Below are positions 2,521 to 46,332 of a stretch of 64,000 nucleotides of DNA, piece by piece. A program made the position numbers and the translations under genes. Origin of the DNA: a phage. A model generated the notes under the pieces. The model was not told where the DNA came from and searched no databases. It saw only the letters and a program-made list of their open reading frames with translations. Every line of letters starts with the position of its first letter. The stretch's first letter is position 1. Location: sequence record PZ347775.1, one strand, 5' to 3'.

Positions 2521-2721
2521 TTACCTCACATAATTTTCTTCAAGCCAATCAATAACATCCAACGCATTATCAAAAGTTGAACCATCTACTTTGTCTTCTG
2601 TTTCATAATCAAGAACATCTAAGCCTACTCTTCCATCAACAATAGGCCATAGACAAAATAGATATTTCTTTTCTTTTTCAATTTTATCACAAAGTCGATA
2701 AATCTTTTCTATGTTATTCAT
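2521..2721 (-). CDS. hypothetical protein (66 aa)
   Basis: ORF track. Confidence 0.5.
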   Translation of the reverse strand: MNNIEKIYRLCDKIEKEKKYLFCLWPIVDGRVGLDVLDYETEDKVDGSTFDNALDVIDWLEENYVR

Positions 2722-2910
2722 AAGTTTTCCATGGTAAAGGCAGTTTAGTTTTCTTTACTGTTAGTTCAATATCAGGATTCTTTTCTCTTAATTTAAGGCA
2801 TTCCTCCCAAGCTCTTATTTCACTAGTGAATACACAAAATTGCCCATTACTAGTACCAACTAAACCACTATTTACAATAACAATAGACCAAGTTTCATGA
2901 TGCCACGCCA

Positions 2911-2911
<1 letters not shown>
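2714..2911 (-). CDS. hypothetical protein (about 65 aa)
   Basis: Track ORF 2714..2941 trimmed to internal Met (MAWHH...) so start overlaps pseT stop by 1 nt. Confidence 0.4.
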
Positions 2912-4136
<1,225 letters not shown>

Positions 4137-41645: not shown

Positions 41646-42065
41646 TTATTCCTTAAAGTGTGCTTTCAACATCTGATACAAGGACCATGCCTGTTCATTA
41701 TTTTCAATAGTAACTTTCATGACTGGGAATTCTGTGAAATCTTCTATTTGTTCTTGCTCTTCCTGCTCTTGTTCTTCAGATGCCTGGTATGGATTTTCCA
41801 CTTCATCAAAGAACCCAGCTTCGTTAGTAGAAAGCCAGATAAAGTTTTCGTCAAGGATATCACCATGTGTTGCATATCCAACTGTGCCAGTAGATGTCAC
41901 AATTTTAGTAGGACGCCCGTAATAGTCCACATCTAAAATTTTAAAAGGTTCCATACCTAAACGTCGTGCATAGATTCCGTTATCAGTATGGTCTTTAATA
42001 AAATTTTCTTGAGCTTGTTTATTTTTAAATTGATACCATTTATTAACTTCAAATCTAATAGCCAT
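41646..42065 (-). CDS. hypothetical protein (139 aa) with acidic EQEQEEQEQ tract
   Basis: ORF track. Confidence 0.55.
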
Positions 42066-42280
42066 TAATAAATTTCCTTCCAGTAAGTTGTGCCATCTTC
42101 AGTAATTTCACGGAATACACCGTAAATTGGTTGTTTATCGCCGACTTTCTCATACACATAAACCGAAGTCAAGTGAGTAAACTTAACAGTATGTTCCTTT
42201 TGAACCACTACCAAATCTGGATCAAATAATACATCTTCAAATTCGTCATTAGTGCAGTTCTGAACAATTTTACGTTTCAT
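42065..42280 (-). CDS. hypothetical protein (71 aa)
   Basis: ORF track. Confidence 0.5.
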
Positions 42281-42293
42281 TACAATTTCCTCA

Positions 42294-42563
42294 TTAATTG
42301 AACAGTGGAGCGATGCGTTTCAGAAGAGTAGCAGCACCTTTGGCAAATTTTACATCATGAAAAACAGTTTCTTCTTCCGTTACAACACGAACTTTAATGT
42401 TTTCACAATCCCAATTTTTACGAACAATCTTCAAAAGCTGCAGTAAATCTTTACATTCAGCAATATCGATAACACATCCACGAGAATCTTCCATTATCGC
42501 ACGATAACCATAAGCCATACCATAATCGTTGAAAGATTGTTCGATGATAATTAAGTTTTCCAT
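42294..42563 (-). CDS. hypothetical protein (about 89 aa)
   Basis: Track ORF trimmed to first ATG MENLIIIEQ. Confidence 0.5.
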   Translation of the reverse strand: MENLIIIEQSFNDYGMAYGYRAIMEDSRGCVIDIAECKDLLQLLKIVRKNWDCENIKVRVVTEEETVFHDVKFAKGAATLLKRIAPLFN

Positions 42564-42591
42564 TTTATTCTCCAAGTTGTTTTCTGTATCA

Positions 42592-42660
42592 GTAGTTGAT
42601 ATTGATATAGTACCATAATCAACTACTGATGTATATAGTTTTATGAAAAAATTTTAAACT
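42592..42660 (-). promoter_or_regulatory. promoter/stem-loop cassette with 11-bp inverted repeat
   Basis: cagtagttgat...atcaactactg inverted repeat enclosing TACTAT; GTTTAA and TATATA motifs upstream; same leader family as other cassettes. Confidence 0.4.
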
Positions 42661-42670
42661 TTATGCAAAT

Positions 42671-43090
42671 TTATGCTAAAGCTGCTTCGCACCATTTTTT
42701 AATTTGGAATTCAGGAACTACCATGAACTGGCCTGCAAAAACAATATTGTAGAGCTTGACGCCATCTTCTACCCAACGGTCCGAAATAAAACCAGCGACT
42801 TGATTCGTTGTCCACGGAGTTCCATCTGTTGCCGCCGCAATTGTGAATTTATGGTCTTTTACAACTAAAACTGAAGAACAAAGTTTCCATTTAAATGCGC
42901 TTTCTTCTGGCTCAATGAATTGGCTTGAGACATAACCAATGTTACCATCAGCGTCACGAACTTTAACCTCGTTACGACCAAAAACTGGATCACTTACAGA
43001 AAGAACTTCAACCAGCTTTCCTGCAACTTTAGAACGAGAAGCAACGGATACATATACGTAATCACCAGTAGAGAGATTTACAATATTCAT
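42671..43090 (-). CDS. MotB-like paralog (139 aa)
   Basis: Shares blocks with next ORF: GKLVE, EVKVR, WVEDGVKLYN.VF.G...V.PE. Confidence 0.6.
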   Translation of the reverse strand: MNIVNLSTGDYVYVSVASRSKVAGKLVEVLSVSDPVFGRNEVKVRDADGNIGYVSSQFIEPEESAFKWKLCSSVLVVKDHKFTIAAATDGTPWTTNQVAGFISDRWVEDGVKLYNIVFAGQFMVVPEFQIKKWCEAALA

Positions 43091-43106
43091 AATAATTCCT
43101 TAAACT

Positions 43107-43595
43107 TTATGCATAGAGAGCTTTGCTATAGTGTTTAATCCAGCTTTCAGGAATGACTTTGTATGTTCCTAAAAATACCACATTATACAGCTTAACACCG
43201 TCTTCTACCCACTGATCGGTAATGTATGCGCACATAGCACGAGTATAAACAGCCACACCATCATCTTTGATAAATTTAAATTCACAAGGAGCAATGAACT
43301 TAATAGCCTGACCGAGTTTCCACTTAAAGTCTACACCTACATGCGAAGTATCAATCGTTTCAATTCCTTTAGCAGGAACAGCTTTCAAAAACGCAGACTC
43401 AAGAAATTTCGCACGAACATAGCCAAACTGAGGTTTAGACTTTCCATCTTTAGGAATGATACGCACTTTTACTTCAGAATCTTCATCTTTAACACCATGT
43501 TTAAGCTGAATGCTTACAATTTCGACCAATTTTCCTGCTGCTTTAGAACGTGATTTATCAGATACACGAGCAATTTCACCAATATTAATAATCAT
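43107..43595 (-). CDS. motB: probable MotB (modifier of transcription)
   Basis: 162 aa as T4 MotB; early promoter upstream; paralogous to 42671..43090. Confidence 0.55.
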   Translation of the reverse strand: MIINIGEIARVSDKSRSKAAGKLVEIVSIQLKHGVKDEDSEVKVRIIPKDGKSKPQFGYVRAKFLESAFLKAVPAKGIETIDTSHVGVDFKWKLGQAIKFIAPCEFKFIKDDGVAVYTRAMCAYITDQWVEDGVKLYNVVFLGTYKVIPESWIKHYSKALYA

Positions 43596-43639
43596 AGTTA
43601 TCTCTCACTTGTTAAAAAGATTTTATACTCCACAGGACC

Positions 43640-43669
43640 ATTATACTCTGGTCCCAAGAGTTTGTAAAC
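43640..43669 (-). promoter_or_regulatory. sigma70 early promoter (GTTTAC -35, TATAAT -10)
   Basis: Reverse complement GTTTAC-18nt-TATAAT upstream of 43595. Confidence 0.55.
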
Positions 43670-43827
43670 TATTAATTCAAAATAGCTACCACTGCACTAC
43701 GAGGTACTACGCTAAAATCACCTGCATGAACAACGTTCAGAAGTTCAACACGATAAATTTTCATTTTATTATCCTCAGTAGCTATGGTGTTATAATACCA
43801 TAACTAACCGAGGAAGTAAACAACTTT

Positions 43828-44511
43828 TTATCGTTTTGTTGGAAGGGATAGAGGATCGCAATCTTCCTCTGACGGAGCATCTTCAAGACCCATAGCATAT
43901 CGCAAAGCATACTTCATCATCAGGATGTCTTTCGCACAGTCATGAATAGAATCATGTGCAACGAATCCATCTAAAGTTCCCTTTGGAAGAGGACATGTGG
44001 TCATATCACGAACAAGCAAAAGTGCTTCAATTCTAGTACGAATATCACGTTGATTCCAGAATTTACATGGTTCTAACTTAAATGTATCAAGCTCATTCTC
44101 AGAAACGCCATTAAGACGTTGAATATCGCGAATGAGATCGACTAAAATTGGAAAATCAAACGACATTCCACGGCACCAGCCTTGAGATTTCCAAGGATCG
44201 ATGTTATGTGCATTGATGTAATCATTAAATTTTGCAATACCATCGATAGTGCTTACATCTTCATCTGATGGCGCAATATTTTTTCGAGCTTCAGGAGACT
44301 GATTTTTCCACCATTCGATAGTGCTTTTAGTAAAAAGACGATGTCCTTTTTGGCTTTTTAAATCAAACTTGATTTTAATGCCGCGTGAAACTAATTCATC
44401 AAAGGATTCAACTACTTCTGGGTTAGGGTCAAAGGCAATAACAGCTAAGTCAATAACAGCTGCTTTTTCACCGCTTCCCATTGTTTCAAAATCTATAATA
44501 AAATCAAACAT
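43828..44511 (-). CDS. dexA: exonuclease A (DnaQ-like 3'-5' exonuclease)
   Basis: 227 aa as T4 DexA; DEDDh-like N-terminal motif DFETMG. Confidence 0.8.
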   Translation of the reverse strand: MFDFIIDFETMGSGEKAAVIDLAVIAFDPNPEVVESFDELVSRGIKIKFDLKSQKGHRLFTKSTIEWWKNQSPEARKNIAPSDEDVSTIDGIAKFNDYINAHNIDPWKSQGWCRGMSFDFPILVDLIRDIQRLNGVSENELDTFKLEPCKFWNQRDIRTRIEALLLVRDMTTCPLPKGTLDGFVAHDSIHDCAKDILMMKYALRYAMGLEDAPSEEDCDPLSLPTKR

Positions 44512-45012: not shown

Positions 45013-46332
45013 TCATACATAAAACACATCATAACGACCACGTGTTACACCAACATAAAGAAGCTGCTGAGCCAATTCAGCATCTGCATAATGGATACAA
45101 GGCGTATAGATAAAAGCACGGTCTACAGACATGCCCTGAGCTTTGTGGAATGTTGATGCAGGAAGTGCTTTCACTTTACTAAACTGTGATTTAGCATCCC
45201 AAAAATCACTCCATGGAGCTTTTCCACCTTTATTCCAATTTTTATAAGTTTCTGCCGTTTTACCTAAAAATAAGTTAAACTTATACAGCTCTTCATCAGA
45301 TGAAATTATTTTAATCTTTTCACGATAATATTCATCATCGCCGTAAGTTTCTACTGTTAAATCCCAATGACGAATTAGATATTCTCCAGGAACACCACGA
45401 GCTTTAACAAATGTTGATGTATACTCTGCTTCTATAATACGAACTAATTGTCCGTTATTAAAAATAATTTCTGACACAGGCTTTCCATCAATTTTATATG
45501 TTTTAATTAGTGGTTCCTGCATTACAATAATTTCACCAACGATAAAATCTTTATCAGTTTCAAAAATCTTTTTACGAATAATGCTATTTAACTTGTCAAC
45601 AGATTTATTCGTAAATGCCATTACACGATTTTCAAACAAATCATCTAGTGATTTTACGATTGAAAAATAATTTACCATAAAATCGCGTAAAGCGGTATCA
45701 CCAGTAAATCCACGTACTCCATGTCCGTCAACAATTTTATCATAAATCCACTTACCATTACGAACATCAGTAGCTACATCAATAATAGGAGCATTACTGC
45801 GTTTAACTTCAGTGAGTTCACACTGATAAAAATCTTTATGTGTAAAGAATGGACTGATATAAGCAGTGTTTTCTCCTGGGTCAACAGGTCTAATTTGCTT
45901 ATTATCGCCTATTCCAATTATAGTACACCATGGCGGGATAGTTGAAAGCAAAATTTTAAATAGCTTTCTATCATACATTGACACTTCGTCGCAGATTAAT
46001 ACCCTGCATTTAGCCAAATCCGGTACTTCTTTTTGCTCAAAAAGAACGTTTTCTTCGTATGTTACTGGGTTAATTTTGAGAATACTGTGAATAGTACTCG
46101 CTTCTTTCCCTGACAGTTTTGAAAGAATCTTTTTAGCTGCATGAGTAGGAGCTGCTAAAATAATGCCAGTTTCGCCTGTAGATATTAAGGCTTCAATGAT
46201 GAACTTAGTAAGAGTAGTCTTACCAGTACCAGCAGGTCCATTAATAGTTACATGATGTTTCTTTTCTTTAATAGCCCTCATAACGATGTTAAAGGCATTT
46301 TTCTGGCCTTCTGTCAAATCATCAAATGTCAT
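45013..46332 (-). CDS. dda: DNA helicase Dda (SF1B)
   Basis: 439 aa; Walker A GPAGTGKTT; T4 Dda size. Confidence 0.9.
   Translation of the reverse strand: MTFDDLTEGQKNAFNIVMRAIKEKKHHVTINGPAGTGKTTLTKFIIEALISTGETGIILAAPTHAAKKILSKLSGKEASTIHSILKINPVTYEENVLFEQKEVPDLAKCRVLICDEVSMYDRKLFKILLSTIPPWCTIIGIGDNKQIRPVDPGENTAYISPFFTHKDFYQCELTEVKRSNAPIIDVATDVRNGKWIYDKIVDGHGVRGFTGDTALRDFMVNYFSIVKSLDDLFENRVMAFTNKSVDKLNSIIRKKIFETDKDFIVGEIIVMQEPLIKTYKIDGKPVSEIIFNNGQLVRIIEAEYTSTFVKARGVPGEYLIRHWDLTVETYGDDEYYREKIKIISSDEELYKFNLFLGKTAETYKNWNKGGKAPWSDFWDAKSQFSKVKALPASTFHKAQGMSVDRAFIYTPCIHYADAELAQQLLYVGVTRGRYDVFYV

What the first reader, a model, noticed from the sequence alone, without database searches (positions are those of the whole stretch)
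42671..43595. Tandem paralogous MotB-like genes
The adjacent 139-aa and 162-aa ORFs share conserved blocks (GKLVE..S, EVKVR, WVEDGVKLYN.VF.G...V.PE) but have divergent central regions. This looks like a tandem duplication followed by divergence, possibly two DNA-binding host-takeover factors with different targets.
Basis: seen in the sequence. Interest (0 to 1): 0.45.

Follow-up and report, generated by a model that had tools for sequence, protein, structure and literature searches.

The report
Known tandem MotB paralogues of T4-like phage

Summary
The 162-aa ORF (43107-43595, minus) and the 139-aa ORF (42671-43090, minus) are homologous over their full length: BLASTP 37% identity, E=2e-24, and z=35 against shuffles. 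The window is a Tequatrovirus, about 99.5% identical to CrRp10 and KFS-EC3. The 162-aa protein is MotB, 96% identical to T4 MotB. The 139-aa protein is a second full-length MotB-family member, not T4 MotB.1. It is the RB69 ORF010c / RB51 ORF010 type, already counted as a second MotB copy in nine phages by Patterson-West et al. 2021 and annotated 'MotB-like transcriptional regulator' in RefSeq. Both AlphaFold models show two five-stranded SH3-like barrels of the KOW/Tudor class. The short copy lacks MotB's disordered interdomain linker and one hairpin extension. The duplication is old: synonymous sites between the paralogues are saturated. The short copy is under purifying selection (dN/dS 0.08-0.2) and is 139 aa in 22 of 23 cluster representatives. 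About 208 of 774 MotB-carrying phage records have it. Side findings are a swapped-in T4-type motB allele, a 30-aa motB.2/motB.1 deletion remnant, a 14-nt direct repeat bracketing the short gene, and natural hybrid genes. The function of the short copy is untested.

The parts
43107..43595 (-). motB, 162 aa, T4-type allele. It has a KOW-like N-terminal barrel, a disordered linker (~68-96) and a C-terminal barrel.
   Evidence: Pfam PF17613 E=1e-108 over 1-162. 96% identical to T4 MotB, with dS 0.165 against T4. AF2 model pLDDT 80.5, with residues 70-83 below 50.
42671..43090 (-). Short MotB paralogue, 139 aa, of the RB69 ORF010c / RB51 ORF010 / PP01_010 type. It has the same two barrels with no linker. 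It has its own AAGGA ribosome-binding site and starts 16 nt after the motB stop.
   Evidence: PF17613 72.1 bits and PHROG 1671 E=1e-50. AF2 pLDDT 83.8, with ten strands matching MotB one to one. Ortholog dN/dS 0.08-0.2 for most pairs. 100% identical to the PP01 protein annotated 'MotB-like transcriptional regulator'.
43672..43764 (-). 30-aa ORF MKIYRVELLNVVHAGDFSVVPRSAVVAILN. It is a deletion remnant: the first codons of motB.2 fused in frame to the last ~27 codons of a PP01-type motB.1, which encode the C-terminal-domain (CTD) core motif. It is the counterpart of the 29-aa 'Category 3' peptide of RB69.
   Evidence: ORF list. blastn break points against PP01 and T4 lie at window 43744-43754. 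The CTD profile hits it at E=8e-4, making it the only third hit in the six-frame window. RB69p012 translates to LKTVVELLNVVHAGDFSVVPRSAVVNILN.
43640..43668 (-). Promoter-like site (G)TTTACA-17-TATAAT immediately upstream of motB. It is the likely early promoter for a motB / short-paralogue transcript.
   Evidence: 11 of 12 consensus matches, the best site in the region; sequence. Function is inferred, not shown. Region-wide, the number of promoter-like sites equals the shuffle expectation.
43100..43113 (-). Copy 1 of the 14-nt direct repeat TGCATAAAGTTTAA. It covers the last codons and stop of motB.
   Evidence: Sequence. T4 has a single copy, and its alignment to the window breaks exactly here.
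42654..42667 (-). Copy 2 of the 14-nt direct repeat TGCATAAAGTTTAA, 4 nt after the stop of the short paralogue. The 446 nt between the repeats (plus one repeat copy) are exactly what T4 lacks.
   Evidence: Sequence. blastn against T4: window 43749-43100 matches T4 locus 2796-2147 and window 42667-42556 matches T4 locus 2160-2051, a 14-nt overlap in T4.

Best explanation
The locus is the early, non-essential dexA-cef region of a T4-like phage. It carries motB and, 16 nt downstream, a second full-length MotB-family gene. The two genes descend from an ancient tandem duplication. This is shown by full-length homology, adjacency in every genome examined that carries the short copy, and saturated synonymous divergence.

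Both proteins are predicted to be two small five-stranded SH3-like beta-barrels. The N-terminal barrel is KOW-like and carries the SRSK.AGK motif. The C-terminal barrel carries the near-invariant D.WVEDGVKLYN.VF.G motif. MotB joins the barrels by a ~25-residue disordered linker. The short copy joins them directly and also lacks a 6-residue hairpin extension.

The following steps are inferred. Both genes are probably transcribed together from the early-type promoter upstream of motB. MotB acts as published for T4: it is an abundant, sequence-nonspecific DNA-coating protein that remodels H-NS-bound DNA. The short copy keeps the shared basic and aromatic residues (R19, K21, K43, R45, K67, W68, K69, K112). 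It therefore most likely also binds nucleic acid, or the same partner surface, as a compact and rigid variant with a non-redundant role in host takeover. The role is taken as non-redundant because the gene is held under stronger purifying selection than motB and at constant length.

The identity and evolutionary parts are near certain (about 0.95). The functional part (nucleic-acid binding and a distinct role) is an inference at about 0.5. The overall confidence of 0.7 blends the two.
For: - **Homology:** (E=2e-24, z=35).
- **Family membership:**
- **Gene order:** T4, PP01, RB69, CrRp10, KAW3E185, phi25-307, CCU7, F2, JS98 and CIP9 were examined. Seven of these carry the short copy, as does the window. 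In all of them it directly follows motB.
- **Selection:** one search gives ortholog dN/dS of 0.08-0.2 for most short-copy pairs (two lower, one at 0.38) and paralogue dS of 1.2-3.3.
- **Conservation:** one search finds 42 positions conserved and identical in both groups and 12 fixed differences. Length is 139 aa in 22 of 23 short-copy clusters, against 160-191 aa for MotB.
- **Distribution:** one search finds 208 of 774 records with an ortholog at 80% identity or more, and none at 60-80%.
- **Published MotB function:** PMC6070864 and PMC7827196. Two MotB copies are listed for nine phages in Table S6 of PMC7827196.
Against: - There is no experimental datum on the short copy.
- In this window it is acidic (pI 5.4, net charge -2) while MotB is basic (pI 9.3, net +7). 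That argues against equally strong electrostatic DNA coating. Net charge is not diagnostic, however, because it ranges from -14 to +7 across MotB-type proteins.
- Co-transcription rests on a consensus match only. The number of promoter-like sites in the region equals the shuffle expectation.
- The placement of the short copy as sister to the MotB clade has only 24% bootstrap support.
Confidence: 0.7

Rival explanations
1. The 139-aa gene is the ortholog of T4 motB.1, the gene next to motB in T4. In that case the pair would simply be the known motB / motB.1 pair.
For: T4 does have a MotB relative adjacent to motB. MotB.1 shares the C-terminal core motif with MotB (PMC7827196; alignment).
Against: T4 motB.1 lies upstream of motB, whereas this gene lies downstream. 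PP01 and RB69 carry both motB.1 and the 139-aa gene. The N-terminal profile matches only MotB and the 139-aa protein. MotB.1 proteins are only 12-24% identical to MotB in the joint alignment and have a different, LSm-like N-terminal domain (PMC12152347). In this window motB.1 survives only as the 30-aa remnant.
Confidence: 0.02
2. The short copy does not bind DNA. It acts as a partner or modulator: it either forms a hetero-oligomer with MotB or competes for a shared host partner such as H-NS/StpA-DNA complexes. It would do so through the conserved C-terminal surface, tuning MotB activity or toxicity.
For: In this phage the short copy has net charge -2 and MotB +7, and most of the difference lies in the N-terminal domain (-1 versus +5). 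The C-terminal core motif is near-invariant across paralogues and is even kept as stand-alone 29-30-aa ORFs, which suggests an interaction module. The two genes are tightly linked. MotB is toxic when over-expressed (PMC6070864).
Against: The KOW-like SRSK.AGK motif and seven conserved basic residues are retained. Some orthologs of the short copy are basic (pI 8.4-8.9). Many MotB-type proteins are themselves acidic. No interaction data exist, and no complex prediction could be run.
Confidence: 0.2
3. The short copy is a redundant or decaying duplicate with no function of its own.
For: It lies in a region dispensable in the laboratory and is absent from T4, T2, JS98 and about 73% of MotB-carrying phage records.
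Against: dN/dS is 0.08-0.2 for most ortholog pairs, over dS up to 0.65. Length is 139 aa in 22 of 23 cluster representatives. The reading frame is intact and the gene has its own ribosome-binding site. It is conserved across Mosigvirus and Tequatrovirus.
Confidence: 0.04
4. The adjacency did not arise by duplication in this lineage. The two genes were brought together by recombination between different phages (cassette exchange), and the paralogy dates to a much older event elsewhere.
For: The body of motB (43555-43118) is T4-like, while everything around it, including the short gene, is PP01-like. Only 5 records (4 phages) carry this particular motB / short-copy junction. The short gene is bracketed by a 14-nt direct repeat.
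Against: This explains only the allele combination. In all seven other genomes examined that carry the short copy it also sits directly after a motB allele. The tandem arrangement itself is therefore ancestral, and the swap replaced one motB allele with another.
Confidence: 0.1

Closest known systems
T4 MotB (NP_049626; Pfam PF17613), an early DNA-binding 'phage nucleoid-associated protein'
   Same: The 162-aa protein is this protein, at 96% identity with the same length and locus. The 139-aa protein shares both domains, 42 family-conserved positions and the Pfam/PHROG family.
   Different: The 139-aa protein lacks the ~18-residue disordered linker and a 6-residue hairpin. It carries 12 fixed substitutions, for example M123 in place of K146, Q57 in place of K63 and F128 in place of S151. 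In this phage it is acidic rather than basic.
RB69 ORF010c 'similar to motB' (NP_861700) / RB51 ORF010 / PP01_010, the second 'Category 1' MotB copy of Patterson-West et al. 2021
   Same: It is the direct ortholog. It is 139 aa, 100% identical to the PP01 protein (dN 0.09 against the RB69 protein), and sits in the same place immediately downstream of motB.
   Different: Here it is paired with a T4-type motB allele rather than the RB69/PP01-type allele, and motB.1 and motB.2 are deleted upstream. Only 5 phage records (4 phages) show this junction.
T4 MotB.1 (LSm-like N-terminal domain family with GoF and Frd.2; Kim et al. 2025)
   Same: It shares the C-terminal core motif (WV.DQW.EDG..L.NVV..G.F.VVP) in full-length versions such as PP01 MotB.1. 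The 30-aa ORF at 43672-43764 is a remnant of its 3' end.
   Different: It has a different N-terminal domain and a different position, upstream of motB. It is not the 139-aa gene.
KOW / Tudor / PWWP SH3-like barrels (NusG, Spt5 KOW6-7, 53BP1 tandem Tudor)
   Different: There is no sequence-level membership. No Pfam KOW hit appears at E<=1, and no PDB sequence relative appears at E<=1. The resemblance is at fold level only.

Membership tests
Pfam PF17613 motB / PHROG 1671 (MotB-like transcriptional regulator) | Profile score above the curated cut-off (25 bits) | tested here: met
   The 162-aa protein scores 360.6 bits. The 139-aa protein scores 72.1 bits in two stretches, the best covering residues 65-137. 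PHROG 1671 gives E=6e-77 and 1e-50.
Pfam PF17613 motB / PHROG 1671 | Two-domain build: a KOW-like N-terminal barrel with SRSK.AGK plus a C-terminal barrel with D.WVEDGVKLYN.VF.G | tested here: met
   The AF2 models have ten strands in the same order. Separate NTD and CTD profiles each hit both ORFs, at E 1e-25 to 1e-44. 42 conserved positions are shared.
Pfam PF17613 motB / PHROG 1671 | Position in the early dexA-cef block of Tevenvirinae, on the minus-strand early transcription unit | tested here: met
   Gene order in the window and in ten related phages.
T4 MotB as characterised (functional definition) | Sequence-nonspecific DNA binding, co-purification with H-NS/StpA, toxicity in E. coli and a 2-fold burst-size benefit | not testable with these tools
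   These are known only for T4 MotB (PMC6070864, PMC7827196). They can reasonably be transferred to the 96%-identical 162-aa protein. They are untested for the 139-aa protein.
T4 MotB as characterised | Flexible interdomain linker (~residues 68-96) | tested here: not met
   This applies to the 139-aa protein. The linker is absent: the barrels are joined by about 10 residues, and no segment has pLDDT below 50.
T4 MotB.1 / GoF / Frd.2 LSm-like family | N-terminal LSm-like domain homologous to the MotB.1 N-terminal domain | tested here: not met
   The N-terminal domain of the 139-aa protein aligns with MotB, not with MotB.1. Its position is downstream rather than upstream of motB.
OB-fold cold-shock DNA-binding domain (proposed for the MotB C-terminal domain by HHpred, 77% probability, in PMC7827196) | C-terminal domain structurally closest to OB-fold / eIF5A C-terminal domains | tested here: inconclusive
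KOW motif family (NusG/Spt5/L24) | Sequence match to the KOW profile | tested here: not met
   No Pfam KOW hit appears at E<=1. Only fold-level similarity is seen.

The most novel reading that the evidence does not exclude
The MotB family may be a small combinatorial toolkit in which barrels are exchanged by recombination at short conserved stretches. Under this reading, the linker-less 139-aa copy is a distinct functional class rather than a spare DNA binder. It would be a rigid, non-coating partner or antagonist that tunes MotB or H-NS nucleoprotein. Three observations are compatible with it. First, natural hybrid genes (MotB N-terminal domain plus linker fused to the short copy's C-terminal domain) formed by crossover in the 14-nt FKWKL microhomology occur in several independent samples. 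Second, 29-30-aa stand-alone core-motif ORFs recur. Third, the motB allele has been swapped in this window.
Probability: 0.2. Interest if true: 0.45.

Novelty: already known. Interest (0 to 1): 0.15.

Why it matters
MotB is one of the few characterised phage-encoded nucleoid-associated proteins. Knowing that about a quarter of MotB-carrying phages keep a second, constrained, linker-less version gives a natural structure-function contrast for testing what the linker and the basic N-terminal domain contribute. The naturally occurring hybrid genes add to that contrast. The paralogue pair itself is already annotated and tabulated in the literature, so the finding adds no new kind of system.

Tried and rejected
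1. **Internal duplication within MotB.** I tested whether the N- and C-terminal barrels are related to each other by profile-profile comparison. hhalign gave probability 1%, so there is no evidence for it.
2. **Solved structures related by sequence.** A profile search of the PDB found none at E<=1.
3. **Dating the duplication by phylogeny.** The NJ tree places the short copy as sister to the MotB clade, but with only 24% bootstrap support. The timing relative to more distant relatives stays unresolved.
4. **Net charge as a predictor of lost DNA binding.** I rejected it as diagnostic because MotB-type proteins range from -14 to +7.
5. **Intrinsic terminators around the pair.** None were found.
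6. **The first tree script** timed out and was rewritten.
7. **The NAR 2021 MotB paper** (Son et al., PMC8450097) is not held. Only its title is cited, from a reference list.

Full report
**What is there**

The window is a T4-like phage. The stretch 42294-44511 is 99.5-99.6% identical to Escherichia virus KFS-EC3 and Citrobacter phage CrRp10, both Tequatrovirus. All genes in this stretch lie on the minus strand. In order of transcription they are:

- dda (45013-46332)
- two small ORFs homologous to dexA.2 and dexA.1
- dexA (43828-44511)
- the 162-aa ORF (43107-43595)
- the 139-aa ORF (42671-43090)
- a 93-aa ORF (42294-42575)
- cef (42065-42280)
- goF (41646-42065)

**Check of the observation**

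The two ORFs align end to end with 37% identity and BLASTP E=2e-24. The Smith-Waterman score is 204, against 29.3 +/- 4.9 for 2000 shuffles, which gives z=35. Identity is 28/59 in the N-terminal half and 31/76 in the C-terminal half. The 'divergent centre' is mainly a deletion or insertion difference. The short protein lacks six residues of a hairpin and about 18 residues between the two halves.

**Identity**

The 162-aa protein is MotB. It scores E=1e-108 against Pfam PF17613 over its whole length and is 96% identical to T4 MotB. The 139-aa protein also passes PF17613 (72 bits, cut-off 25) and PHROG 1671 (E=1e-50).

It is not T4 motB.1. The gene orders compare as follows:

| Phage | Order between dexA and cef |
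|---|---|
| T4 | motB.2, motB.1, motB |
| PP01 | motB.2, motB.1, motB, 139-aa gene, 89-aa gene |
| RB69 | motB.1, 29-aa ORF, motB, 139-aa gene, motB.2 |
| This window | 30-aa ORF, motB, 139-aa gene, 93-aa gene |

The N-terminal domain of the 139-aa protein matches MotB, not the different N-terminal domain of MotB.1. Kim et al. 2025 classify the MotB.1 N-terminal domain as LSm-like, together with GoF and Frd.2 (PMC12152347).

The 139-aa protein is the ortholog of RB69 ORF010c 'similar to motB', RB51 ORF010 and PP01_010. Patterson-West et al. 2021 list these proteins directly after the MotB proteins in their tree-ordered table, where the first 51 rows match the stated size of 'Category 1'. They count two MotB copies in nine phages (PMC7827196, Tables S4 and S6). 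RefSeq annotates both genes of CrRp10 as 'MotB-like transcriptional regulator'. The pair is therefore already known.

**Structure**

Each protein was modelled with AlphaFold2 on a 67-sequence alignment.

| | 139-aa protein | MotB |
|---|---|---|
| Mean pLDDT / pTM | 83.8 / 0.59 | 80.5 / 0.45 |
| N-terminal strands | 11-14, 26-32, 41-45, 51-55, 59-61 | 8-11, 23-30, 41-46, 56-61, 65-67 |
| C-terminal strands | 73-85, 92-108, 111-118, 121-126, 130-133 | 97-109, 115-131, 134-141, 144-149, 153-156 |
| Interdomain region | about 10 residues, no low-confidence segment | residues 68-96 without secondary structure; 70-83 with pLDDT below 50 |

The two proteins thus have the same two five-stranded barrels, and MotB adds a flexible linker.

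No solved structure is related by sequence. In BFVD the nearest models are MotB-family proteins of T4-like phages. The two barrels show no detectable sequence relationship to each other.

**Evolution**

An exhaustive profile search of 1.84 billion representative proteins finds only 34 clusters at E<=0.001. Every named or located relative seen in the other searches comes from a T4-like phage, so this is a very small family that appears confined to T4-like phages.

In the phage collection, 774 records carry a MotB-family match. Of these, 208 have an ortholog of the short copy at 80% identity or more, always alongside a second place. None falls between 60% and 80%. The two genes are therefore cleanly separate orthologous groups.

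- **Selection on the short copy.** dN/dS among its orthologs is 0.08-0.2 for most pairs, with dS up to 0.65.
- **Selection on MotB.** Its orthologs show dN/dS of 0.13-0.39.
- **Age of the duplication.** Between the paralogues within a genome, dS is saturated at 1.2-3.3.
- **Length.** The short copy is 139 aa in 22 of 23 cluster representatives, whereas MotB ranges from 160 to 191 aa.
- **Conserved positions.** 42 positions are conserved and identical in both groups. These include R19, K21, K43, R45, K67, W68, K69 and K112. Twelve positions are fixed differences.
- **Tree.** The short copies form a clade with 100% bootstrap support, outside a 70%-supported MotB clade. Their exact sister relationship is unresolved, at 24%.

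The duplication is old and both copies are functional.

**Mosaic structure of this locus**

1. Against PP01 the window is 95-100% identical everywhere except 43555-43118, the body of motB. Identity there drops to 35-72%, and that segment is T4-like (dS 0.165 against T4 and 1.3 against PP01). A T4-type motB allele has therefore been swapped into a PP01-like backbone. Only five records, representing four phages, carry this motB / short-copy junction.
2. Upstream, a deletion of about 946 bp removed motB.2 and most of motB.1. It fused the first codons of motB.2 in frame to the last ~27 codons of motB.1. The result is a 30-aa ORF (43672-43764) that carries the C-terminal core motif and has a GAGGA ribosome-binding site. 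RB69 has a near-identical 29-aa ORF in the same place, the 'Category 3' peptide of the 2021 paper.
3. The short gene is bracketed by a 14-nt direct repeat, TGCATAAAGTTTAA (43113-43100 and 42667-42654). T4 has one copy of the repeat and lacks exactly the intervening 446 nt.
4. Metagenome assemblies from several independent runs contain single hybrid genes. In these, the MotB N-terminal domain and linker are joined to the short copy's C-terminal domain. The crossover lies in the 14-nt microhomology encoding FKWKL, and the flanking genes are the expected ones.

**Mechanism**

For the 162-aa protein the T4 data can be transferred. T4 MotB is an abundant early protein that is toxic on over-expression and gives a two-fold burst-size benefit. 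It binds host DNA and glucosyl-hmC DNA without detectable specificity. It co-purifies with H-NS and StpA, changes the H-NS footprint, and de-represses part of the H-NS regulon (PMC6070864; PMC7827196). The title of Son et al. 2021, seen in a reference list, says that it compacts host and phage DNA.

The best promoter-like site in the region is (G)TTTACA-17-TATAAT at 43668-43640, just upstream of motB. The short gene starts 16 nt after the motB stop and has its own AAGGA ribosome-binding site. Co-transcription is therefore likely but not shown.

For the short copy I infer a compact, rigid MotB variant that keeps the conserved KOW-like motif and basic and aromatic residues. It probably binds nucleic acid or the same partner surface, and purifying selection suggests a role that MotB does not cover. 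Confidence in this functional inference is about 0.5.

The main rival, at about 0.2, is a non-DNA-binding partner or modulator. In this phage the short copy has pI 5.4 and net charge -2, against pI 9.3 and +7 for MotB. Net charge varies from -14 to +7 across MotB-type proteins, however, so it is not decisive. A decaying duplicate and a motB.1 ortholog are both effectively excluded.

**Verdict**

The pair is an already annotated and published feature of RB69-like and RB51-like phages. 'Different targets' has no support. The allele swap, the deletion remnant, the flanking repeat and the natural hybrid genes are minor new details. Novelty is 'already known', and interest is low.

Noticed in passing
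window 43672-43764 (-): A 30-aa ORF, MKIYRVELLNVVHAGDFSVVPRSAVVAILN, with a GAGGA ribosome-binding site and an upstream promoter-like site (43820-43792). It is an in-frame fusion of the motB.2 start to the motB.1 3' end, left by a deletion of about 946 bp. It is near-identical to the 29-aa RB69p012 peptide. Recurrence of this mini-ORF in two genera, keeping exactly the conserved core motif, may mean that it is expressed.
   Followed up: partly
window 43118-43555 (motB body) versus flanks: There is a sharp mosaic. The window is 95-100% identical to PP01 on both sides, but only 35-72% identical inside motB, which is T4-type. This is an allele (cassette) swap whose junctions lie in the conserved first ~40 nt and at the stop codon of motB. 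Only 4 phages in the collection share the resulting junction.
   Followed up: yes
window 43100-43113 and 42654-42667: A 14-nt direct repeat, TGCATAAAGTTTAA, brackets the short paralogue. T4 has one copy and lacks exactly the intervening segment. This suggests gain or loss of the gene by recombination between the repeats.
   Followed up: yes
L011-L014 (P0028) and L015 (P0029), Logan assemblies: These assemblies carry single hybrid genes in place of the tandem pair. The MotB N-terminal domain and linker are fused to the short paralogue's C-terminal domain, with the crossover in a 14-nt microhomology encoding FKWKL. P0028 occurs in at least four sequencing runs with the expected flanking genes. 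An assembly artefact is not fully excluded.
   Followed up: partly
window 42588-42630 (-): A 13-bp perfect stem (AUCAGUAGUUGAU...AUCAACUACUGAU) lies downstream of the short paralogue. The 96-nt intergenic RNA folds at -20.7 kcal/mol, z=-4.8 against shuffles. No U-tract follows, so it is not a classical terminator. The same sequence lies downstream of motB in T4 at 98% identity.
   Followed up: partly
window 42294-42575 (-): A 93-aa ORF (PHROG 3720, function unknown, no Pfam hit) sits between the short paralogue and cef. T4 lacks most of it (window 42355-42556 is absent from T4), and RB69 has motB.2 in that position instead.
   Followed up: no
L003 (T4) 2643-3151: T4's own motB.1 (119 aa) ends just after ...WVTDQWIGRWR. 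DNA matching the rest of the C-terminal core of PP01-type MotB.1 continues downstream of its stop codon. T4 MotB.1 therefore looks truncated relative to the 141-aa PP01 version.
   Followed up: partly
A4 alignment (P0112-P0120, P0127; L006 CIP9 'motB'): More distant T4-like phages have proteins that combine a MotB-type N-terminal domain (VYVS..SRSKVAGE..EVKV) with a MotB.1-type C-terminal domain (DPTDLL...EDGVELLNVV...VPRS). The N-terminal and C-terminal types therefore assort independently across the family.
   Followed up: no
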